A stretch of 52,329 nucleotides of DNA. Origin: Escherichia virus TH53. The position numbers and the translations under genes are program-made. The stretch is taken from sequence record MT446419.1; one strand, given 5' to 3'. The notes under the pieces are model-generated. The model was not told where the DNA came from and did not search any database. It saw only the letters and a list, made by a program, of their open reading frames with translations. This document shows positions 333 to 41,178 of the stretch, one piece after another (within the stretch, counting starts at the first letter, position 1; every line of letters starts with the position of its first letter).

Positions 333-2273
333 ATGACTACTATCACCACTCAAACTATCAAATCCGTTGTTCCTGCTATCACTGCTCTGGTATACCGTGC
401 CAAAGAGAAACAGAACTATATGCAGCCTCAGACTTGTGCTATTGCTGCCTTAGCCATCTTCAAGATGATGACGTCTTTCACTCGTGATGACGTTGTTCCT
501 GCCATCGCGATGGTTGAGCTGGCTTCTGCTTCTATTGCTGATGCCAACCGTTATAACAACGATTTGAAAGCAATGCACTATGTTGACCCAGCTATCAACC
601 TCATTGGTCTGGCTAAGCACTTTGGCTTCATCACCATGAACGAAGACAAGTCATTCCAACAAACTGATACATGGGTTGAGCTGGTTACAACTAAAGACAC
701 CGCAGTGCCATTCACTGAGCGTGTTACATCTGAATCTCGTCGCAAGCCTTTCGTTAAAGGTGGCAAAGTTAAGCCATCCAAGACTCTGAAAGCTGCAATC
801 GAATTCCTGCAAGATACTGAGTACCATGTGGAGACTGAGATGGTTCGCATCATCCAGTCCATGATTGAGCAACGTACTTATGGTGGCTTGCAGATGCCAG
901 AAGCAATCCAGACTGAACTCCATGTTTGGAACAATGCTGTAGCAATGATGAATCAGGATAAGCTGTATTCTGACTACTTTGCTGATAACCGTGGTCGTCT
1001 GTATCATGTAGCATGTGCTGGTCCTAACCCACAATCCTCTGACTTTGCTCGTTGCTTGTATTCTCACAATGTTGAGAACATCGTTAAAAAGTTTAACGAA
1101 GATGGTTCTACTACCATTGCATACAACATGTTCATGGCTGAGCTGGAAGATATTTCCGGTGGTGAATGGTGCAGTGCTAAGCGTTTAACTTATGTTGCTC
1201 AGAATCCAGCTGGTTCACTTGCTCGCATGATGAACATGCCTAAAGCTGAACGTCCTTCTAAGCCATTCACTTATGTTCGTCTGGCTCTGGATTGGTTCAA
1301 GTTTGAGACTACAGGTGAGTGTGATTCTCGTGTAGGCTTCGGCTTAGATGCTAAATGTTCTGGTACTCAATATCTGGCATTCATTGCTGGTAACATGGAA
1401 ATGGCTCGTGCAACAGGTCTGGTTGATTCTGAGACTAAAGCATCTGACCCATACCAGTTATCTCTTCGTGAACTGTTGAAGTTATTGGACCGTTCTTCAA
1501 TGAAGCCATCTCCTGAAATTATGGATGAATTCTTGAATCCGAAAGCTGGTCGTAAGTTTATCAAAACTCCATACATGGCTATCCAATATGGTGGTGGTAA
1601 AGCTGCATTGACTGGTTCTTCTGACTTCATTAGCTACATGACAGAAGCGCTCCAGATTCCTATGGAGAAAGCTGAGGCATTTGCTGAACTGTGTGTAGAA
1701 GCAATCCATAACGCATTGGGTGCTAAGATTAACATGTTCATTGAGAAGGCTGCTGATGCTGCATACAACCGTTGTGTTGAACTTGGTAAAGAGTACATCA
1801 CATACCGTCACACTGATGGTCAGGTTGTAATGAAGCCTTGCTTCCCATCTCGTGAAATCTGTGAGGCATTCAGCATTCGTGTTGACTCTCAAACTCGTGT
1901 TATCTTTGGCCAGATTCAGGAGAATAAGCCTTGGACCATTCGTGAATCCAATCCAACTAAAGAAGAATTCAAGCGTACTTTCGTTGTTAACTACATTCAA
2001 GGTATTGACGCATTGGTTGCTCGTACTGTTGCAGTTAAGGCTAAAGAAGCTGGTCTTCGTGGCTTCACTTCAATCCACGATTGTTTCCGTTGCTGCTTAG
2101 CTGATGCTCCACGCATGATGGAAGTTATTCGTGCAGCATATGTTGAAATCTTCGTAACCAACAATCAATTCGAGAATCTGTCTAAGCAACTTGGTGGCAT
2201 TCAGATGTATCATGAGAACATCGTAACCGAAGAGCTTCTGATGAGCGAACACGCTTACTACTTCTGTCAATAA
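333..2273 (+). CDS. single-subunit T7-like DNA-dependent RNA polymerase, short 646-aa form
   Basis: Seen: motif B-like RKFIKTPYMAIQYGGGK (T7 RSVTKRSVMTLAYGS) and motif C-like SIHDCFRC (T7 HDSFGT). Inference: about 240 aa shorter than T7 RNAP, so most of the N-terminal domain is absent. Confidence 0.85.
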   Translation: MTTITTQTIKSVVPAITALVYRAKEKQNYMQPQTCAIAALAIFKMMTSFTRDDVVPAIAMVELASASIADANRYNNDLKAMHYVDPAINLIGLAKHFGFITMNEDKSFQQTDTWVELVTTKDTAVPFTERVTSESRRKPFVKGGKVKPSKTLKAAIEFLQDTEYHVETEMVRIIQSMIEQRTYGGLQMPEAIQTELHVWNNAVAMMNQDKLYSDYFADNRGRLYHVACAGPNPQSSDFARCLYSHNVENIVKKFNEDGSTTIAYNMFMAELEDISGGEWCSAKRLTYVAQNPAGSLARMMNMPKAERPSKPFTYVRLALDWFKFETTGECDSRVGFGLDAKCSGTQYLAFIAGNMEMARATGLVDSETKASDPYQLSLRELLKLLDRSSMKPSPEIMDEFLNPKAGRKFIKTPYMAIQYGGGKAALTGSSDFISYMTEALQIPMEKAEAFAELCVEAIHNALGAKINMFIEKAADAAYNRCVELGKEYITYRHTDGQVVMKPCFPSREICEAFSIRVDSQTRVIFGQIQENKPWTIRESNPTKEEFKRTFVVNYIQGIDALVARTVAVKAKEAGLRGFTSIHDCFRCCLADAPRMMEVIRAAYVEIFVTNNQFENLSKQLGGIQMYHENIVTEELLMSEHAYYFCQ

Positions 2274-22280: not shown

Positions 22281-22305
22281 GGCTCCTTCGGGAGCCTTTA
22301 ATTTT
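22281..22305 (+). terminator. intrinsic terminator
   Basis: GGCTCC-TTCG-GGAGCC hairpin followed by TTTAATTTT. Confidence 0.65.
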
Positions 22306-22318
22306 GGAGCTTACCAAA

Positions 22319-23341
22319 GTGAGTAAGAAACGGGTTTTGTTGCTGGTTGACGGCGACATGGTTGCATTCAGCCACTGTGCTGCTGAGGAATACGGCAAAG
22401 ATTCAGAAGATATTAACTTTGCTAAGATTCAAATGTCAATGGATTCCAAGATGGAATTCCTTGCGAAACGTGTAGGCGCTACAGAAGTAGTTACCTGCAT
22501 TTCACCATCCAAAACATTCCGTAACGTTCTTGCCGAGAATTACAAAGGCAATCGTGATGATGTTTGGCGACCAGAAAACTTGAAGAATGCGAAAGCACAT
22601 CTTATGGTTGCCTGGAATGGCGTATGGATGAAAGGTCTGGAAGCAGATGACCTCCTTGCCGTATTCGCACGTCATGAATACGAAATGACAATGGGTAAAC
22701 GTAATGAGATTAAGAGCCTCAAGCGCATTGGTCCTTGCACATATGATGAAGTCTGGATTGCGTCGCTGGACAAAGACTTGCGACAAATCGGGCAGAATGG
22801 TGGTGCTGGTCCAGTAATTAAACATTACCAATGGGAACGAGAAACCCAAGGTATTGGTGAGAAGGTTGTAACTCCGAAGGATTACGGCGAACTCAAATTA
22901 ATCATCAAGGACAATGGCAAATCGAAGAAGAAAGAAGTTAAAGGCAATGGCCCTAAATTCTTCTTGCATCAATTGCTTATTGGCGACTCAACAGATAACG
23001 TTATGGGTTGCGGAGTTCTTGAAGAAAGAATCTACAAAACTGGTGCCAAAGCCGGAGAAACTTATTTCCGTCGTGATGGCATTGGTGCAGTTGCTTCATT
23101 CGAAATGCTGGATGGCACAACATCTTATGCAGAAGGTTTGAAGAAAGTTATTGGTGCATATATTGTGCGCTTCGGAGATGGTTGGGAACAGGAGCTGCTC
23201 AAAGTGGGCCGTCTTGTTTACATGCACCATCAAATTGAAAAGGGTAATTGTGTTCGCTTGTGGCATTACAAGAACATTAACGAATACTTTGACCTTAAAG
23301 AGAATCGTATCCTCACTCAAGAAGAGTACCTCCAGAAATAA
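22319..23341 (+). CDS. 5'-3' exonuclease / flap endonuclease (T4 RNase H, T7 gp6 family)
   Basis: Seen: LLLVDGDMVAFS, GLEADDLLAV, LLIGDSTDNVMG. Start uncertain (GTG 22319 or TTG 22304). Confidence 0.75.
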   Translation: MSKKRVLLLVDGDMVAFSHCAAEEYGKDSEDINFAKIQMSMDSKMEFLAKRVGATEVVTCISPSKTFRNVLAENYKGNRDDVWRPENLKNAKAHLMVAWNGVWMKGLEADDLLAVFARHEYEMTMGKRNEIKSLKRIGPCTYDEVWIASLDKDLRQIGQNGGAGPVIKHYQWERETQGIGEKVVTPKDYGELKLIIKDNGKSKKKEVKGNGPKFFLHQLLIGDSTDNVMGCGVLEERIYKTGAKAGETYFRRDGIGAVASFEMLDGTTSYAEGLKKVIGAYIVRFGDGWEQELLKVGRLVYMHHQIEKGNCVRLWHYKNINEYFDLKENRILTQEEYLQK

Positions 23342-23352
23342 TTGGAGTTGGA

Positions 23353-23877
23353 ATGGCTTACGGTTATTGTGGAACGGAAGCCAAGTTTGTATCTTGGCTC
23401 CAATCTGCTATTCGAAGTGTTTGGTCTAAACACCCAAGCAAACTCGCGCTGATACAATCTCGACGCATTGCATTGAAGGTCGGTGACTCAAAGAAACCAA
23501 TCTTCCACATTCAATGCTACCATTGCAAGAAGTTGTATAAGCTCAAAGAGATTGAAGTAAACCACAAAGTTCAGGTTGGTGGCCTCCTTAAATTGGAAGA
23601 CCTGCACCGCTTTGTGGACAACCTTCTACTGGTTCAGCCAGAAGATTTGGAATTGCTGTGTAAAGATTGTCACGGCATTATTACATACATGGAACGATAT
23701 GGTGTATCACGTCGTGATGCAGTCATTGAGAAGAAGTGTATTGCATTTGCCAAATTAACTGACGAAGAGCAAATTGCCAAGTGCAATCTTGCTAAAATAG
23801 AGCCAGTTCCTAAAACCAAAATCGGACGCAAGAATGCTGTTCGAGAATACCTGAGAAAGAATCTTAATGTCTATTAA
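23353..23877 (+). CDS. HNH / endonuclease VII-like nuclease
   Basis: Seen: CYHCKK ... VNHKV ... CKDCHG, two Cys pairs with an HNH-like His/Asn. Confidence 0.5.
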   Translation: MAYGYCGTEAKFVSWLQSAIRSVWSKHPSKLALIQSRRIALKVGDSKKPIFHIQCYHCKKLYKLKEIEVNHKVQVGGLLKLEDLHRFVDNLLLVQPEDLELLCKDCHGIITYMERYGVSRRDAVIEKKCIAFAKLTDEEQIAKCNLAKIEPVPKTKIGRKNAVREYLRKNLNVY

Positions 23878-36834: not shown

Positions 36835-37293
36835 ATGGCTTGTGAATTGCTTCAACGTGAATTCACAAACTCCAAAGGCGAAACAGTGTTAGTCGTTGTT
36901 CGACAATTGTCGGCTTCGGCTGCACTGTCTCTTCACGCGGAGTTGGTAAGCAAGTTAGGCTCACGAGTATTTCCATTCATCGAAGGTAAATATAACTTCG
37001 CTGATATTATATACTTGATGCAGCAAGTAGAGCATACCGTATTCACAGAATTGTTTAAGCGTGTTATCAGCATGCACTCGTCCATAGACGGACAAGAAAT
37101 CAAACCTGCATTATATGATATGCAGTTCAATGGCGAATTGATGTTGTCTTGCCATGTCTTTGCTTTCGTGCTCGAAGCAAACTTCCTTGATTTTTTCAAG
37201 CAAGGGCTCGAAATCAACGAACAGAGACGATTGGAGGCGGAGGAAGCATCCAAGCTGGCAGAGCAGAAGAATTCGAGTCCGGAGACAGTTTAG
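36835..37293 (+). CDS. tail assembly chaperone, short form
   Basis: Position before the tape measure; TTTTTTC slippery site inside the gene. Confidence 0.6.
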   Translation: MACELLQREFTNSKGETVLVVVRQLSASAALSLHAELVSKLGSRVFPFIEGKYNFADIIYLMQQVEHTVFTELFKRVISMHSSIDGQEIKPALYDMQFNGELMLSCHVFAFVLEANFLDFFKQGLEINEQRRLEAEEASKLAEQKNSSPETV

Positions 37294-37469
37294 TATCCCT
37301 GTTCCCCGACATAAAATATTTTCTGCATCGTCCTATAATCGAAGACAGTTCTCTCTGCAAGTTACGTGAATTGCAAGATGGAACCTATTCGATTATGGAC
37401 TTATTGCTATTCCACGACATTCTCGATTTGCGTAAGAAACTCGAACCAGTAGATGAAGACAATGGCTAA
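36835..37469 (+). CDS. tail assembly chaperone, predicted -1 frameshift long form
   Basis: Seen: slippery heptamer T-TTT-TTC at 37191-37197; the -1 frame opens exactly there and runs to 37469. Confidence 0.5.
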
Positions 37470-40400
37470 TCAAAAAGATTTAATGAAGTTGAGTGTTAAT
37501 GAGTTAATTGCATTAGGCTCTCAAAGCGGTCTGACTTTCCATGCTGGTATGAAGAAGTCGCACATGGTTCAACAACTTAGTGCGAGCGCTGCTTCGGGAT
37601 GGCTGGATACAAATGCAGAATTAATGGGTGGGTCGTTTGAAGATGATAGTTTAATTACTGAATCTCTGGGCGACTCTTCCATGATTTCAGACGCTGCCCA
37701 CATTGCACAAGTGCTCTCAAGTGCTGGCTACACAGAAGCATTTCATGCAGCAATGAATGGTCCATCACACCATGTAGAAGCTGTTCACGCATACATGGAA
37801 AGGCTTGGTGTCAACACAGACGATGTGTGGATGCACATGCCGAAGCCAAATCCGAACCTACCGCAGGGTAGCTTCAACATGCTTAATGCCTATATGCGAG
37901 ATACTTTGCAAGGGCATCAAGATATTATGCCAGAAATCCCAGGCCATTATGCTGGCGATATTATGGCTGAATACTCCACCAACCGTGGAAACATTGCTGA
38001 CTCATACAACTACATGGCCCACATGTATGTTGACCGTGAACAATACAGCAATCATGAACAATACGCAAGAGACATTAGTCGAGTTGCCAAACGTCTGGAA
38101 CAAGAGTTACCCGCAGCCTTTAAGGAAGTTGGGTATACCTCGGCCTCTAATGTAGGAAATAAATCGGCTCCACATATTTCTTACATGGATGCACTTCCTC
38201 AGATTGGTTCTCCTTCAATTGTTTCTGGCATTGCACATCCTCGTGCACCTCTTAACGCATCTGGACTCCCACTTGGTTCTTATGGTTCTGGCATAAATCC
38301 AGAATACTCTCTCACTGCATCATTAACTGGTGGCACTGGTTGGAGCGAACCAAGCAAGGCTTTGTATTCTTCCATTAGCGAAGCTGTTAAATCTGCTGCC
38401 AAAGTTTATTCCGGCTCCAAAGGGATGATGAATACTCGTCACGAAGTATCTGACCGTGACATGATTATGGATAGTGCAACTCGCTATACAGATTTGGAAG
38501 AAGCCAGAAGCGGGTACGAAAACCTTCGTTCTGAACTTGCAGATGAACCAGCTTATTCTGCATCGAGTGTTCGAGCTATTCTCGAAAACACTTATGACAA
38601 AATGGATGCCGAACCTGTTCGCATTCCAAAGATGAAGGGAGCTTCACAGCGAGTCGAAAAAGATTCGCAATCAACATCTACAGATTTTACAGCACAACTT
38701 GGAGAGGCCACCAATTGGAACTCTGCAAGAATGCGTCGTGAGGAAATTGCGATTGCAAATATGGATAGTGCTGGATTCCGTGATGTATCTGACTATGGTA
38801 CAGGACGTTCCGAGTCTCCCGTCAGATTCCATGACTTAGAACAGGGTAGCCAAGAGTGGCTAGACTTCCGTAAAAATTATGACATAACTGGCTCAACTGT
38901 TGGAACCTTCTTAGGAAACAACCCGTATACCCGACCTTGGGCGGGAATGATTGACAAGATTGGTTTATCTCGTAGCAAAGAGCACAGCGATTTCACTAAG
39001 AAGATGTTCGCTGATGGTCACAGGACGGAAGAAGAAGCACGCGCTCGTGTTGGTAAGGAATTTGGATTCGATATCAAACAAACTGGCGCTATAACAAATG
39101 ACAACTATCCCGCCTTCATGTATTCTCCTGATGGTCTTATTGGTGATGATGCCATTTGGGAGCACAAGAATCCGCAAAGGGCTGGTAAGTTTGCTGACCT
39201 TCTTAAAGGCGACCATCCAGATTACATGGACCAAATTCAATTTGGTATGCACGTTTCTGGCCGTTCTCGTGCTTTGTTCTCACAAACCATCAACGACGAA
39301 ACACGTTCACAATGGATTGAGAAGGACGAAGGATGGTACGAGAGAAACCGAAATCGTCTTGATTCTGTGCTTGGCCGTCTTGATGCTGGGCGAGAGTTTG
39401 TTAGAAACAATGCTGGGCTAGGCCGAGAAGAACTGATTGCTGGTGCAAGAAGTGCAATGACTGGTGATGGTATCTGGAAGGATATTCGTCAAAGGTCAAC
39501 TCGCGGCTACTCTGCCGTTGCTGGAACTCCAGAAGACCCATTTATTGGTTCACGTTCTTCATACAATCCAAAGGCATCTTATTCAGACTACCAGCCAAAC
39601 TTTGTAATGCACGAGCAAAACTTTCCAGCAACCACAGGAAATGGTGATACTGGAAATGACTCGATGGCATTGTCTGTTAAGAAAGGTATCCTTGCTGCCC
39701 AGGAAGAAAACAGGCAGAAGGGTATCGGTGCAGATGCAGACTTTAATGGCAAAGCCGACTCAATGGGCTGGGACCGTGAAAGATTTGATGCTGCCAATGG
39801 CGGTGGATATTCTGGCGGTGGCGGTGGTCGTGGCGGTAACTTCACAAGTGGTGGCAACTACTATGATGACTACGGTCGCATGGGTGGTTCACTAGCTGCT
39901 GGTATTGCTGGTGGCAGCATTGGTTCAGCAACCAACGGAGTTATGCAAGCATTGATGGCAACTCCTGCTGGACGTATGGCAGCTGTAGGCATTGGTGCTA
40001 TTCAGATTGGCAATGAAGCTGCTGAATACATGAATGACTTTATCGGCAACTCGCTTGATGCTGGTGTTATGAATCCTAATGAATATTCTTCCATGTCGCA
40101 AGGCTTGGAGATGTTAGGACTCAACTCACAACAAGCGGCACGTCTGAATCAAACCACACATAGTGCCTACAACACTATGCTTAACGGCGACCCCAGCGCC
40201 GCTGTGAACATCGTTCGCGGCAGTAGGGGATTGCTCACCATAGGTGATATTCGTGCGACAGGCGGCGACCCTGTGGCCCTGGCTCGCATCATGCAGGAAA
40301 GGGGCAAGGAGCGTGGCTGGAGTCAGGCCCGTATCGCAGGTGCTGCCGAAATGGCTGGCCTGAATGGGATGGCGAGAGCCTACGACCGCACGGAATACAG

Positions 40401-41178
40401 CCATGAGCAAGCTGGTTCGGTGGTAGAAGCGGGTAGAAACTCTGACTTTGCCGAAGGTATGGTTCAGTCAGAAATGTTGCAGGGGAGCCGCGCACGCGTG
40501 CTGCCTAGCTACAACGTGCCACAAAGTGTCCTATCTAATGGCGCCCCAATCTTCGAAGCCGGAAGTGCTGCACTTGATGGTGCTCGTACTGGATTCAATC
40601 AGGCCCGTGAGTTTGCTGGAAGTGTTTACGACTTTATCGCTCAGGAAGAATCCGGTGGTCGTGAATACAATAAAGATGGTTCTCGTGTAACAAGTCGCAC
40701 TGGTGCTCGTGGAATAATGCAAATTCTTCCTTCGACTGCCCGTGACCCAGGATTTGGAATCAAGCCATCTGATGGAACTCCAGAAGATGATGCACGAGTT
40801 GGTCGCGAATACTATGACGCAATGTACAAGCGTTATGGCGACCACGAAAAGGCAATGGCTGCTTACACCGATGGCCCTGGCACTGTAGATGAAGCCATTA
40901 AAGATAAAGGATTAGGTTGGCTTACTGCTGTTCCTAAACAGGCACAGAATCGCGTCAAAGCATTCCGTGAATGGTCCAAGTCTTCTCAATCTTTGGAAGA
41001 GGGTGCTACAGGGTTTACTCGCAATGGAATGTCTTATGGTCAAACCCAAACTGTTGTCAATGTTAAGATTGATGCCAAGGTCAACAACCAGGTTGCTTCT
41101 GCTACAGTTGCAGTTCCTGGGGGCCAGACTGTAACTCAACAAATGAACATGAACAACGGTGCACAACAAAGACGTTGA
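37453..41178 (+). CDS. tail tape measure protein with lytic transglycosylase (SLT) domain
   Basis: Seen: 1241 aa after the chaperone; SLT-like block EESGGREYNKDGSRVTSRTGARGIMQILPSTA near nt 40630-40760; Gly-rich segment near nt 39780-39940. Confidence 0.7.
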   Translation: MKTMANQKDLMKLSVNELIALGSQSGLTFHAGMKKSHMVQQLSASAASGWLDTNAELMGGSFEDDSLITESLGDSSMISDAAHIAQVLSSAGYTEAFHAAMNGPSHHVEAVHAYMERLGVNTDDVWMHMPKPNPNLPQGSFNMLNAYMRDTLQGHQDIMPEIPGHYAGDIMAEYSTNRGNIADSYNYMAHMYVDREQYSNHEQYARDISRVAKRLEQELPAAFKEVGYTSASNVGNKSAPHISYMDALPQIGSPSIVSGIAHPRAPLNASGLPLGSYGSGINPEYSLTASLTGGTGWSEPSKALYSSISEAVKSAAKVYSGSKGMMNTRHEVSDRDMIMDSATRYTDLEEARSGYENLRSELADEPAYSASSVRAILENTYDKMDAEPVRIPKMKGASQRVEKDSQSTSTDFTAQLGEATNWNSARMRREEIAIANMDSAGFRDVSDYGTGRSESPVRFHDLEQGSQEWLDFRKNYDITGSTVGTFLGNNPYTRPWAGMIDKIGLSRSKEHSDFTKKMFADGHRTEEEARARVGKEFGFDIKQTGAITNDNYPAFMYSPDGLIGDDAIWEHKNPQRAGKFADLLKGDHPDYMDQIQFGMHVSGRSRALFSQTINDETRSQWIEKDEGWYERNRNRLDSVLGRLDAGREFVRNNAGLGREELIAGARSAMTGDGIWKDIRQRSTRGYSAVAGTPEDPFIGSRSSYNPKASYSDYQPNFVMHEQNFPATTGNGDTGNDSMALSVKKGILAAQEENRQKGIGADADFNGKADSMGWDRERFDAANGGGYSGGGGGRGGNFTSGGNYYDDYGRMGGSLAAGIAGGSIGSATNGVMQALMATPAGRMAAVGIGAIQIGNEAAEYMNDFIGNSLDAGVMNPNEYSSMSQGLEMLGLNSQQAARLNQTTHSAYNTMLNGDPSAAVNIVRGSRGLLTIGDIRATGGDPVALARIMQERGKERGWSQARIAGAAEMAGLNGMARAYDRTEYSHEQAGSVVEAGRNSDFAEGMVQSEMLQGSRARVLPSYNVPQSVLSNGAPIFEAGSAALDGARTGFNQAREFAGSVYDFIAQEESGGREYNKDGSRVTSRTGARGIMQILPSTARDPGFGIKPSDGTPEDDARVGREYYDAMYKRYGDHEKAMAAYTDGPGTVDEAIKDKGLGWLTAVPKQAQNRVKAFREWSKSSQSLEEGATGFTRNGMSYGQTQTVVNVKIDAKVNNQVASATVAVPGGQTVTQQMNMNNGAQQRR

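What the first reader, a model, noticed from the sequence alone, without database searches (positions are those of the whole stretch)
37453..41178. Tape measure protein carrying a lytic transglycosylase domain and a long Gly-rich segment
The 1241-aa protein has an SLT-like block near its C-terminus and a low-complexity Gly-rich stretch. A peptidoglycan-cutting tape measure would assist wall penetration at injection; the N-terminus may also be a small Rho-N/SAP-like helical motif, which I hold with low confidence.
Basis: partly seen in the sequence, partly recalled or inferred. Interest (0 to 1): 0.4.

Follow-up and report, generated by a model that had tools for sequence, protein, structure and literature searches.

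The report
Tape measure protein carrying an exonuclease
This is the tail tape measure protein of a Chaseviridae coliphage.

Summary
The ORF is real: 37453-41178, + strand, with the conserved start probably at 37462 (1238 aa). The window is a Carltongylesvirus (Chaseviridae) myophage, 97% identical to phage EcoM1 across this gene.

The gene sits in the tape-measure slot. Upstream are sheath, tube and a tail assembly chaperone with a conserved -1 slippery site (T_TTT_TTC). Downstream are the baseplate hub and a Dit-like protein. The 64%-identical orthologue of phage 4HA13 was found in purified virions by mass spectrometry.

- The SLT domain passes Pfam (E 4e-13), and its catalytic Glu is kept in 71 of 72 homologues.
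- The Gly-rich stretch has 20 Gly in 50 residues (0 of 2000 shuffles reach this).
- The N-terminal Rho_N/HeH-like motif gets only weak, though recurrent, support.

- Pfam E 2e-13; AlphaFold2 pLDDT >90; TM-score 0.66-0.80 to lambda exonuclease and LHK-Exo.
- The catalytic D-E-K residues and the Arg aligned to lambda exonuclease Arg28 are invariant in 72 of 72 homologues.
- The domain recurs in about 1200-aa proteins in the same slot of more distant phage contigs.
- It is swapped as a cassette among near-identical phages.

The protein is about 40% longer than the 1.5 Å-per-residue rule predicts for a 132 nm tail.

Verdict: an ordinary lytic tape measure protein with an unstudied nuclease cargo, a new variant of a known kind.

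The parts
37462..41178 (+). Tape measure / ejection protein CDS, 1238 aa from the conserved start. The ORF's first ATG is at 37453 and the stop TGA at 41176-41178.
   Evidence: ORF. Start overlaps the stop of the chaperone's -1 frame; in Mangalitsa only MANQKD is conserved. Full-length match to phrog_19855 'virion structural protein'. 91 homologues of 1197-1284 aa.
37471..37596 (+). N-terminal helix-extended-helix motif (aa 4-45), Rho_N/HeH-like. Assignment is weak.
   Evidence: Pfam Rho_N in 6 of 25 family N-termini (best E 0.0057; HeH in 1), all below cut-off. PDB profile top hits are Rho N-terminal domains, E 0.04-0.2. hhalign against E. coli Rho gives P 42%. AF2 helices 4-8, 12-21 and 32-55. 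A similar pattern is readable in distant relatives.
37690..38586 (+). Alpha-helical domain of unknown function (aa 77-375).
   Evidence: AF2 pLDDT mostly 78-93 (lower in places: 42-53 for aa 151-170), helical. Every match with probability 0.8 or more to the N-terminal-half model in PDB or BFVD is a nuclease or a full-length relative, so nothing is attributable to this domain. No family hit.
38596..38811 (+). Mostly disordered linker (aa 379-450) before the nuclease, interrupted by one predicted helix at aa 421-436.
   Evidence: AF2 pLDDT <50 for aa 379-423 and 436-450. Lowest conservation in the family, 0.31-0.47.
38821..39531 (+). YqaJ / lambda-exonuclease-like PD-(D/E)XK nuclease domain (aa 454-690). 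Catalytic D557 (39130-39132), E567 (39160-39162), K569 (39166-39168); R470 (38869-38871) aligns with lambda exonuclease Arg28.
   Evidence: Pfam YqaJ E 2e-13. NCBIfam lambda-exonuclease family E 6e-15. PDB profile hits: LHK-Exo 3syy E 7e-17, lambda exonuclease 1avq E 5e-7. AF2 pLDDT mostly 85-96. Foldseek TMt 0.66-0.80 to lambda exonuclease and LHK-Exo. D557, E567, K569 and R470 invariant in 72 of 72.
39787..39951 (+). Gly-rich low-complexity segment (aa 776-830).
   Evidence: 20 Gly in 50 residues, reached by 0 of 2000 shuffles. AF2 pLDDT <50. Gly-rich stretches (13-19 Gly in 40 residues) lie downstream of the nuclease in seven of eleven distant relatives inspected; four others show no comparable stretch there.
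39883..40014 (+). Weakly hydrophobic Gly/Ala segments (aa 808-851) with a small-xxx-small pattern. Candidate membrane-active region.
   Evidence: These are the two most hydrophobic 19-mers of the protein (Kyte-Doolittle 0.92 and 1.20), still below the usual transmembrane threshold. G814, G818, G826 and G837 are invariant. Membrane activity is an inference.
40009..40491 (+). Conserved alpha-helical domain (aa 850-1010) upstream of the SLT domain.
   Evidence: AF2 pLDDT 87-95. Among the best-conserved parts of the protein, 0.72-0.75 identity over aa 871-960. Foldseek alignments to Slt-type transglycosylases span 361-487 columns, which may include this region (E 0.01, prob 0.97, poor rmsd).
40609..40971 (+). 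SLT lytic transglycosylase domain (aa 1050-1170) with catalytic E1063 (40648-40650).
   Evidence: Pfam SLT E 4e-13. PDB profile hits to Slt/Slt70, E 5e-6 to 8e-4, and to T7 gp16, E 0.03. E1063 kept in 71 of 72, S1064 in 71 of 72, Q1087 in 71 of 72, Y1135 in 71 of 72. AF2 pLDDT 85-93.
41044..41175 (+). C-terminal beta-rich tail (aa 1195-1238), the presumed hub or tail-tip anchor.
   Evidence: AF2 predicts three strands at low confidence. The motif V-N-V-x-I-x-(A/G)...N is recognisable in several distant relatives. In Pa193 and phiTE the TMP C-terminus binds the tail tip or hub (PMC11456595, PMC11972413). Anchoring here is an inference.
36835..37293 (+). Tail assembly chaperone (152 aa), the G-like product.
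   Evidence: Pfam Phage_TAC_15 E 2.9e-18, above cut-off. phrog_11820 'tail assembly chaperone' E 2.5e-75.
37191..37469 (+). -1 programmed frameshift: slippery T_TTT_TTC at 37191-37197, then a 90-codon -1 frame extension ending at TAA 37467-37469. The GT-like fusion would be about 211 aa.
   Evidence: The -1 frame is open from the slippery site to 37469. Both the heptamer and the -1 frame peptide are conserved in Mangalitsa, where the zero frame after the chaperone stop is broken by further stops.

Best explanation
The gene encodes the tail tape measure / ejection protein of a Chaseviridae myophage. It is built as a string of modules, N- to C-terminal:
1. A short helix-extended-helix motif.
2. 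A helical domain of unknown function.
3. A disordered linker.
4. A lambda-exonuclease-type (YqaJ) nuclease with an intact active site.
5. A Gly-rich linker followed by weakly hydrophobic Gly/Ala segments.
6. A second helical domain.
7. A family-1 (SLT) lytic transglycosylase.
8. A beta-rich C-terminal tail.

**Shown here:**
- the domain content and the conservation of both active sites;
- the tape-measure gene position next to a frameshifting chaperone;
- presence of the orthologue in virions;
- recurrence of the architecture in distant relatives.

**Inferred mechanism:**
- With the chaperone's help, a few copies (probably three) are laid largely unfolded inside the tail tube, with the C-terminus anchored in the hub.
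- After sheath contraction the protein leaves C-terminus first.
- The SLT domain cuts peptidoglycan.
- The Gly/Ala hydrophobic region helps form the passage through the inner membrane.
- The N-terminal half leaves last, next to the leading DNA end, and so delivers a pre-made 5'->3' exonuclease at time zero.

**Most speculative step, what the nuclease does.** My preferred guess is that it binds and resects the entering genome end. That could expose the terminal repeat or make the end a poor RecBCD substrate. The alternative is an attack on host or defence DNA.
For: **Position**
- Gene order is terminator, sheath, tube, TAC, this gene, hub, Dit-like, spike, sheath initiator, Baseplate_J.
- A canonical -1 slippery heptamer with a conserved -1 frame peptide lies just upstream.
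- No other ORF in the tail module exceeds 482 aa.

**Virion protein**
- The 4HA13 orthologue (P0022, 64% identical) has 64-67% peptide coverage in CsCl-purified virions.

**Nuclease**
- Pfam, NCBIfam and PDB profile hits.
- AF2 pLDDT mostly above 90 and Foldseek TMt 0.66-0.80 to lambda exonuclease and LHK-Exo.
- D557, E567, K569 and R470 invariant in 72 of 72 homologues, down to 39% identity.
- A PD...ExK motif is kept in eight of the eleven distant ~1000-1500 aa relatives inspected.

**SLT**
-.

**Architecture beyond the family**
- An exhaustive HMM search found 22 long proteins (840-1534 aa) with an internal nuclease domain among the best 150 hits. The rest are 73-591 aa, the size of standalone nucleases.
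- Four of four distant ones inspected sit in the same TAC-to-hub slot.
- Four of seven scanned also carry SLT.

**A separate replication nuclease exists**
- The phage has an exonuclease gene in its replication module (22304-23341, phrog_107). The tape-measure nuclease is therefore an extra activity.

**Solved relatives**
- In Pa193 the TMP C-terminus forms a trimer at the tail tip. The protein carries an SLT domain and is proposed to be unfolded in a 37 Å lumen and to fold on ejection (PMC11456595).
- In phiTE the TMP N-terminus lies at the connector.
Against: - No match to any tape-measure family in Pfam or NCBIfam at E <= 1.
- AF2 predicts compact domains and disordered linkers rather than a long helix.
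- Length per residue is 0.97-1.07 Å/aa (116.5 nm/1204 aa for 4HA13; 132 nm/1238 aa for ST32; 132 nm/1279 aa for PP101), against 1.52 Å/aa for Pa193 (130 nm/858 aa). The simple ruler relation is not met.
- A folded ~25 kDa nuclease would barely fit a 37 Å lumen, and three side by side would not. Unfolded or staggered storage has to be assumed.
- The hydrophobic segments score below the usual transmembrane threshold.
- Nothing here shows nuclease activity, delivery to the cytoplasm or the substrate.
- The 64-67% mass-spectrometry coverage does not by itself prove the nuclease segment is in the virion.
Confidence: 0.65

Rival explanations
1. It is an ordinary lytic tape measure protein. The nuclease-like domain is a structural spacer or evolutionary relic with no enzymatic role in infection.
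For: - Many tape measure proteins carry extra domains.
- No activity data exist.
- The phage already has a replication-module exonuclease.
- The domain is flanked by disordered linkers, as an inserted module would be.
Against: - The catalytic D-E-K triad and the Arg aligned to lambda exonuclease Arg28 are invariant in 72 of 72 sequences, although the domain diverges to about 50% identity between alleles.
- The motif persists in eight of eleven distant relatives inspected.
- The best-conserved 30-residue window of the whole protein (0.84 identity) covers the active site.
Confidence: 0.15
2. It is not the length ruler. It is an internal ejection or 'DNA transfer' protein of the T7 gp16 kind that merely occupies the tape-measure slot, and tail length is set in some other way.
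For: - No tape-measure family match.
- Domains-on-linkers architecture in the models.
- About 40% too long for the tail by the 1.5 Å/aa rule.
- Outside Chaseviridae, the closest matches to the SLT domain include podophage proteins annotated 'DNA transfer protein', 'lytic tail fiber' and 'lysis protein'.
- Weak profile hit to T7 gp16 (E 0.03).
Against: - No other candidate ruler exists in the tail module.
- The slot next to the frameshifting chaperone is the hallmark of tape measure genes.
- Length is tightly constrained across the family, 1197-1284 aa over 35-94% identity.
- The two roles do not exclude each other: Pa193's TMP is itself described as a de facto ejection protein.
Confidence: 0.12
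3. It is a tail fiber, or simply an endonuclease, as several GenBank records annotate it.
For: Records for phiEcoM-GJ1, ST32, Bp7, DE15 and SA91KD call it a (putative) tail fiber. SKA49 calls it a putative endonuclease.
Against: - No fibre-like repeats or receptor-binding domains appear in Pfam or PHROGs.
- The fibre genes lie downstream of the baseplate.
- Its position, the SLT domain and the virion data fit a tape measure.
- The 'endonuclease' label describes only one of its domains.
Confidence: 0.03

Closest known systems
Tape measure protein gp41 of Pseudomonas phage Pa193 (E217-like Pbunavirus; cryo-EM, PMC11456595)
   Same: - Same slot in a related contractile-tail module: sheath PF11863 and Phage_tail_terminator_9 here, with the E217- and Pa193-named families Pa193_gp24 and E217_gp27 on relatives' contigs.
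- Carries a transglycosylase domain.
- Similar tail length (130 nm against 132 nm).
- Its C-terminus is anchored at the tail tip, and it is proposed to be unfolded in the tube and to fold on ejection.
   Different: - Pa193 gp41 is 858 aa (1.52 Å/aa), and the paper describes no nuclease domain in it.
- This protein is 1238 aa (about 1.07 Å/aa). The surplus of about 360-380 aa roughly equals the nuclease module plus its linkers.
- tblastn with the C-terminal half listed no tape measure protein outside Chaseviridae among the rows shown. The remaining matches were SLT-only.
Lambda exonuclease (Red alpha) and LHK-Exo (PDB 1avq, 3slp, 3syy)
   Same: - Same fold (TMt 0.66-0.80).
- Same SPDG...E-x-K catalytic motif.
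- An Arg aligned with lambda exonuclease Arg28, and the Y-M-x-Q-x-Q motif.
   Different: - Those are ~200-230 aa standalone cytoplasmic enzymes that act as toroidal trimers and are encoded beside a single-strand annealing protein.
- This one is an internal module of a virion protein in the tail gene cluster, and the genes next to it are tail genes.
- Sequence identity is only 20-25%.
Muralytic tape measure proteins: mycobacteriophage TM4 Tmp (Piuri & Hatfull 2006), phage T5 Pb2 (Boulanger 2008), enterococcal phage TMPs with lytic transglycosylase domains (PMC10194240)
   Same: A tape measure protein carrying a peptidoglycan hydrolase that helps wall penetration. T5 Pb2 also combines ruler, muralytic and membrane-active parts.
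   Different: None of these is reported to contain a nuclease. Most are siphophage proteins with long helical ruler regions. These comparisons rest on the cited papers and on general knowledge, and were not tested here.
T7 gp16 and related podophage internal 'DNA transfer' proteins
   Same: An ejected virion protein with an SLT domain that helps build the trans-envelope conduit. Weak profile similarity, E 0.03-0.05. SLT-level matches to podophage proteins.
   Different: gp16 is stored in the capsid core, has its SLT domain at the N-terminus and is not encoded next to a tail chaperone.
Virion-delivered DNA-end proteins (T4 gp2, Mu N). Functional analogy only, from general knowledge.
   Same: If the preferred hypothesis is right, all of these are proteins injected with the genome that act on or protect its ends in the first moments of infection.
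   Different: Those proteins protect ends without known nuclease activity. No homology was tested or is claimed.

Membership tests
Tail tape measure protein (functional class) | Gene lies between the tail assembly chaperone (with a programmed frameshift) and the baseplate hub or distal tail genes. | tested here: met
   TAC PF21822 at 36835-37293. Slippery T_TTT_TTC at 37191-37197 with a conserved -1 extension to 37469. Hub and Dit-like genes directly downstream.
Tail tape measure protein (functional class) | Protein length proportional to tail length, about 1.5 Å per residue. | tested here: not met
   0.97-1.07 Å/aa (4HA13 116.5 nm/1204 aa; ST32 132 nm/1238 aa; PP101 132 nm/1279 aa), against 1.52 Å/aa for Pa193. 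Subtracting the nuclease module and its linkers (about 340 aa) brings it close to the rule, but that is arithmetic, not a test.
Tail tape measure protein (functional class) | Sequence membership in a described tape-measure family (Pfam or NCBIfam). | tested here: not met
   Only YqaJ and SLT in Pfam at E <= 1. NCBIfam gives only the lambda-exonuclease family, transglycosylases and chance hits.
Tail tape measure protein (functional class) | Present in the virion, inside the tail tube, as a trimer or hexamer with its C-terminus at the hub. | not testable with these tools
   Virion presence of the 4HA13 orthologue is reported by LC-MS/MS at 64-67% coverage. Its location and copy number are unknown.
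SLT lytic transglycosylase (Pfam PF01464, GH23 family 1) | Profile score above the curated threshold. | tested here: met
   49.4 bits against 21.3, E 4e-13.
SLT lytic transglycosylase (Pfam PF01464, GH23 family 1) | Catalytic Glu in an E-S motif, plus the G-L-M-Q-like and A-Y-N-x-G-like motifs. | tested here: met
   E1063-S1064 (71 of 72), G-I-M-Q1087 (Q 71 of 72), A-Y1135-T-D-G (Y 71 of 72).
SLT lytic transglycosylase (Pfam PF01464, GH23 family 1) | Lysozyme-like fold. | tested here: inconclusive
   AF2 pLDDT 85-93 for aa 1050-1170. The best Foldseek hits are Slt-type enzymes, but at E 0.01 and with poor global rmsd because the query model has several domains.
YqaJ / lambda exonuclease family (Pfam PF09588) | Profile score above the curated threshold. 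| tested here: met
   51.3 bits against 22, E 2e-13. NCBIfam TIGR03033 gives 55.6 bits, below its cut-off of 68.
YqaJ / lambda exonuclease family (Pfam PF09588) | PD-(D/E)XK catalytic residues (lambda D119, E129, K131) and the 5'-phosphate-binding Arg (lambda R28; its role is from general knowledge). | tested here: met
   D557, E567, K569 and R470 align with those residues and are invariant in 72 of 72.
YqaJ / lambda exonuclease family (Pfam PF09588) | Lambda-exonuclease fold. | tested here: met
   AF2 pLDDT mostly 85-96. Foldseek gives E 4.5e-8 to 8e-8 and TMt 0.66-0.80 over about 200-217 columns.
YqaJ / lambda exonuclease family (Pfam PF09588) | Encoded as a standalone enzyme next to a single-strand annealing protein (recombination module). 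| tested here: not met
   It is an internal domain of a 1238-aa virion protein in the tail cluster, and its neighbours are tail genes. This points to a role different from Red-type recombination modules.
YqaJ / lambda exonuclease family (Pfam PF09588) | Toroidal trimer; processive 5'->3' dsDNA exonuclease activity. | not testable with these tools
   No multimer prediction or assay was available.
Rho_N / HeH / SAP-like helix-extended-helix motif | Profile score above the curated threshold. | tested here: not met
   Best Rho_N hits have E 0.0057-0.034. The one bit score reported (14.5) is below the cut-off of 24.9. Six of 25 family N-termini and one of seven distant ones hit.
Rho_N / HeH / SAP-like helix-extended-helix motif | Two helices joined by an extended segment, with the conserved hydrophobic/Gly pattern. 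| tested here: inconclusive
   AF2 helices 12-21 and 32-55 separated by a non-helical stretch, pLDDT 68-80. Rho N-terminal domains are the top PDB hits at E 0.04-0.2. hhalign P 42%.

The most novel reading that the evidence does not exclude
The tape measure doubles as a delivery vehicle for a working lambda-type 5'->3' exonuclease. The enzyme enters the cell with, or just ahead of, the genome and acts in the first seconds of infection. It could act on the phage's own leading end, for terminal-repeat exposure or escape from RecBCD. Or it could act on host or defence DNA. The nuclease module would then be under arms-race selection, which would explain why divergent alleles (50-60% identical) are exchanged as cassettes between otherwise 83-99% identical tape measure genes.
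Probability: 0.35. Interest if true: 0.7.

Novelty: new variant of a known kind. Interest (0 to 1): 0.5.

Why it matters
A peptidoglycan-cutting tape measure protein is textbook. A tape measure protein with a conserved, apparently active recombination-type exonuclease is not.

- **No published description found.** Three full-text searches turned up no paper that describes such an architecture, and a fourth returned no papers at all.
- **Possible new class of cargo.** If the nuclease is delivered, it would add an enzyme that acts on DNA to the known classes of injected cargo in contractile-tailed phages. That would bear on how linear genomes survive entry.
- **A test of the ruler rule.** A ~25 kDa globular domain would have to be stored in a ~37 Å tube without lengthening the tail.
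- **Annotation.** Public records variously call this gene tail fiber, endonuclease, tail tube initiator, virion protein or hypothetical protein. A consistent name (tape measure protein with nuclease and SLT domains), the correct start codon and the unannotated chaperone frameshift would improve Chaseviridae annotation. These phages are being considered for biocontrol.

Tried and rejected
- **Word-indexed homologue search with the nuclease segment alone.** It returned only nine short standalone YqaJ proteins and not even the family itself. I replaced it with the exhaustive profile search.
- **Literature searches.** 'tape measure protein' + YqaJ, 'tape measure' + 'exonuclease domain' + virion, and YqaJ + transglycosylase found nothing relevant. 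'tape measure protein' + 'nuclease domain' + ejected found no papers. The original phiEcoM-GJ1 and Erwinia phage Y2 papers are not held.
- **Fold search for the two helical domains.** Foldseek against PDB and BFVD gave nothing attributable to aa 77-375. For aa 850-1010 there are only long, poorly superposed alignments to Slt-type enzymes. Their folds and roles remain unassigned.
- **Transmembrane reading of the Gly/Ala segments.** Kyte-Doolittle maxima of 0.92-1.20 are below the usual threshold. I keep 'membrane-active' only as an inference.
- **Tape-measure family membership.** No hit in Pfam or NCBIfam.
- **Tail-fiber reading from GenBank.** Rejected on position and domain content.
- **Sequencing artefact or gene fusion.** Rejected: the architecture recurs in 91 homologues and in more distant contigs.
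- **Model coordinates.** They were not available to scripts, so I could not measure domain dimensions or map allele differences onto the surface.

Full report

Yes. An uninterrupted ORF runs from 37453 to 41178 on the + strand, 1241 codons plus TGA. Pfam finds an SLT lytic transglycosylase domain at aa 1060-1152, at E 4e-13 and 49.4 bits against a cut-off of 21.3. The Gly-rich stretch is real: the densest 50-residue window holds 20 Gly, and none of 2000 shuffles of the protein reaches that.

Two corrections are needed:
- **Start codon.** The conserved start is almost certainly the second in-frame ATG at 37462 (MANQKD..., 1238 aa). It overlaps the stop of the upstream -1 frame. It is the only ATG kept in phage Mangalitsa, and it gives the 1237-1239 aa length of close homologues. 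All residue numbers below count from 37462.
- **A missed domain.** Pfam also finds a YqaJ-like (lambda exonuclease family) nuclease domain at aa 468-604 of the 1241-aa reading, at E 2e-13 and 51.3 bits against a cut-off of 22.

**2. What genome is this?**

Across this gene the window is 97% identical to Escherichia phage EcoM1 and 95.5% to ST32. It is 82.7% identical to Mangalitsa, whose record places it in genus Carltongylesvirus, family Chaseviridae; ST32 and phiEcoM-GJ1 belong to the same genus. These are 52-56 kb myophages with a T7-like RNA polymerase and about 3 kb terminal repeats.

Public records name this gene inconsistently. Labels include virion structural protein, (putative) tail fiber, putative endonuclease, tape measure protein, tail tube initiator protein and hypothetical protein.

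**3. Is it the tape measure protein?**

Position says yes. The gene order is:
- tail terminator (PF23961);
- sheath (PF11863);
- tube;
- tail assembly chaperone (PF21822, above cut-off);
- this gene;
- baseplate hub;
- Dit-like protein;
- plug;
- spike N-domain protein;
- a baseplate wedge subunit (a sheath-initiator family protein at this position on related contigs);
- Baseplate_J.

The chaperone ORF (36835-37293) contains a canonical slippery heptamer, T_TTT_TTC, at 37191-37197. From there the -1 frame stays open for 90 codons to the TAA at 37467-37469. Both the heptamer and the -1 frame peptide are conserved in Mangalitsa at about 83% nucleotide identity, while the zero frame after the chaperone stop is broken by further stops. 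This is the G/GT arrangement that marks the gene just upstream of tape measure genes.

No other ORF in the tail module exceeds 482 aa.

The 64%-identical orthologue of phage 4HA13 was identified in CsCl-purified virions with 64-67% sequence coverage.

Against a simple ruler reading:
- No tape-measure family in Pfam or NCBIfam matches at E <= 1.
- The protein is about 40% too long for its tail. The values are 132 nm/1238 aa = 1.07 Å/aa (ST32), 132 nm/1279 aa (PP101) and 116.5 nm/1204 aa (4HA13). The structurally related Pseudomonas phage Pa193 gives 130 nm/858 aa = 1.52 Å/aa.

**4. Anatomy**

I ran AlphaFold2 on the two halves with a 52-sequence alignment. The models show folded domains joined by disordered linkers:

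| Residues | Feature | Model confidence |
|---|---|---|
| 4-55 | Short helices (helix-extended-helix motif within aa 4-45) | pLDDT 68-80 over aa 1-40 |
| 77-375 | Helical domain, function unknown | pLDDT mostly 78-93 |
| 379-450 | Mostly disordered linker | pLDDT <50 except aa 424-435 |
| 454-690 | Nuclease | pLDDT mostly 85-96 |
| 690-850 | Low confidence apart from one helix (aa 734-752); contains the Gly-rich run and two weakly hydrophobic Gly/Ala segments (808-851) | mostly pLDDT <50 |
| 850-1010 | Helical domain | pLDDT 87-95 |
| 1050-1170 | SLT | pLDDT 85-93 |
| 1195-1238 | Beta-rich C-terminal tail | low confidence |

The two Gly/Ala segments have Kyte-Doolittle scores of 0.92 and 1.20, below a typical transmembrane score.

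**5. The nuclease domain**

- A profile of 72 homologues hits the alkaline exonuclease LHK-Exo (3syy, E 7e-17) and lambda exonuclease (1avq, E 5e-7).
- In those alignments SPDG...WEHK sits on lambda's SPDG...ELK (D119, E129, K131), and R470 sits on lambda Arg28, the 5'-phosphate pocket residue.
- The model superposes on the whole of lambda exonuclease and LHK-Exo, with TMt 0.66-0.80.
- D557, E567, K569, R470 and about 30 further positions of this domain are invariant in 72 of 72 homologues, down to 39% overall identity.
- The best-conserved 30-residue window of the entire protein (0.84 identity) covers the active site.
- The phage also has an ordinary exonuclease in its replication module (22304-23341, phrog_107). 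The tape-measure nuclease is therefore an additional activity.

**6. The SLT domain**

- The catalytic E1063-S1064 is kept in 71 of 72 homologues. The G-I-M-Q and A-Y-T-D-G motifs are present.
- PDB profile hits are to Slt and Slt70 (E 5e-6 to 8e-4), with a weak hit to T7 gp16 (E 0.03).
- Outside Chaseviridae, the C-terminal half matches other phages only through this domain. Many of those proteins are annotated as podophage internal or 'DNA transfer' proteins.

**7. The N-terminal motif**

- Rho_N is the commonest Pfam hit among family N-termini (6 of 25, best E 0.0057), and HeH hits once.
- Rho N-terminal domains top a PDB profile search (E 0.04-0.2).
- hhalign against E. coli Rho gives P 42%.
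- One distant relative also hits Rho_N, at E 0.034.
- All scores are below curated cut-offs, so this stays inconclusive.

**8. Distribution**

- All 91 homologues (35-94% identical, 1197-1284 aa apart from a few shorter, probably partial, sequences) share the architecture. Nearly all carry both Pfam domains.
- An exhaustive HMMER search of 1.84 billion representatives with a profile of the nuclease domain gave 6382 hits.
- Among the best 150 hits, 22 are long proteins (840-1534 aa) with the domain at an internal position. The others are 73-591 aa, the size of standalone nucleases.
- Seven distant long ones were scanned. Six have YqaJ and four of those also have SLT.
- Several of them also show an N-terminal helix-extended-helix-like pattern, a Gly-rich run after the nuclease, and the C-terminal V-N-V-x-I...N motif.
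- Four of four inspected lie in the same slot, between a Phage_TAC_15 chaperone (three of them followed by a small ORF) and the next downstream gene, which on the three longer contigs is the hub/Dit-like/Baseplate_J set.

**9. Cassette exchange**

Within Carltongylesvirus-level homologues, aa 1-150 are 86-100% identical and aa 751-1238 are 76-99% identical (83-99% leaving out P0009). The nuclease segment (aa 451-700) falls into three alleles:
- **Type A:** the window, P0001, P0007, P0009.
- **Type B:** P0006, P0008. These are 98% identical to each other and 57-60% to A.
- **Type C:** P0010, P0011, P0012, P0016 (phiEcoM-GJ1) and P0017. These are 96-100% identical to each other, 54-58% to A and 50-51% to B.

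P0006 has window-like flanks and P0008 has P0007-like flanks, yet both carry type B. Type A is closer to the Sabourvirus allele (77-80%) than to B or C. The boundaries coincide with the domain limits in the model. The catalytic residues stay invariant in all three. This matches the published remark that nucleotide similarity between phages flopper and GJ1 is partly low in the putative tape measure gene.

**10. How it most likely works**

*Shown:* the domain content, the conservation of both active sites, the tape-measure slot, the chaperone frameshift, virion presence of an orthologue, and recurrence of the architecture.

*From solved relatives:*
- In Pa193 three tape-measure C-termini bind the tail tip.
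- The Pa193 lumen is about 37 Å wide, and the authors propose that the protein is unfolded in the tube and folds on ejection.
- In phiTE the N-terminus lies at the connector.

*Inferred:*
- The protein leaves C-terminus first.
- The order of its modules from C- to N-terminus (SLT, hydrophobic Gly/Ala region, nuclease, DNA-binding-like motif) matches the order of barriers from outside to inside (peptidoglycan, inner membrane, cytoplasm and DNA).
- The nuclease half would leave last, next to the leading genome end.
- By my rough estimate, a trimer of the 134.6 kDa protein would fill about a third of a 37 Å x 1300 Å lumen. It fits by volume, but folded nuclease domains could not sit side by side.

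*Speculative:* the substrate. I favour binding and resection of the entering genome end, to expose the terminal repeat or to make the end a poor RecBCD substrate. An attack on host or defence DNA is the alternative. The cassette exchange hints at an arms race.

**11. Rivals**

- **Inactive spacer domain.** Contradicted by the invariance of the catalytic residues.
- **Ejection protein that is not the ruler.** Not excluded, and not exclusive of the main reading.
- **Tail fiber or plain endonuclease (database labels).** Rejected on position and content.

**12. Novelty**

Lytic transglycosylase domains in tape measure proteins are well documented, and some records already call this gene a tape measure protein. 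The embedded lambda-exonuclease-type domain is visible in precomputed Pfam annotation and in one 'putative endonuclease' label. I found no paper that describes or discusses it. I therefore rate it a new variant of a known kind, of moderate interest.

Noticed in passing
window 37191-37469: There is a -1 programmed frameshift in the tail assembly chaperone: slippery T_TTT_TTC at 37191-37197 and a 90-codon -1 extension, giving a fusion of about 211 aa. It is not annotated as such in relatives. ST32 lists a separate 56-aa ORF65 there, and Mangalitsa leaves about 390 nt unannotated.
   Followed up: yes
window 37453-37464; L001 9001-9230: Start codon problem. The conserved start is ATG 37462, not 37453. 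In the Mangalitsa record the CDS starts 76 codons too far downstream and so cuts off the conserved N-terminal helix-extended-helix motif.
   Followed up: yes
window 38812-39561 (aa 451-700) compared with P0006, P0008, P0010-P0012, P0016, P0017: The nuclease domain exists as three deeply divergent alleles (50-60% identical to one another). They are shuffled between tape measure genes whose flanks are about 83-99% identical. The same allele B occurs on two different backbones.
   Followed up: partly
window 22304-23341 and 23353-23877: A separate replication-module exonuclease (phrog_107) is followed by an HNH endonuclease ORF (phrog_1985) lying between the exonuclease and ligase genes. This looks like a homing-endonuclease insertion.
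   Followed up: no
window 333-2273: The RNA polymerase ORF (646 aa) matches only positions 154-816 of the PHROG profile. The N-terminal part may lie upstream of the first ATG in the ORF list, or it may be cut by the start of the window.
   Followed up: no
GenBank PP952070.1 (hit H20/H32): A record named 'Staphylococcus phage Pel53' (host Staphylococcus hyicus) carries this Chaseviridae gene at about 91% identity to coliphage sequences. That host assignment is unexpected for a phage family that infects Gammaproteobacteria, and it may be a contaminant or a mislabel.
   Followed up: no
L005 3909-6669: In a distant relative's contig, a 2.7 kb stretch with no called gene lies between the chaperone and frameshift ORF and the small ORF just upstream of the 962-aa nuclease-bearing protein. 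The N-terminal part of that tape measure may be split off or uncalled.
   Followed up: no
whole window: The window is 52,329 bases long, exactly the length of the Mangalitsa record. Yet this gene is only 82.7% identical to Mangalitsa and 97% identical to EcoM1. I take this as coincidence but did not check it.
   Followed up: no
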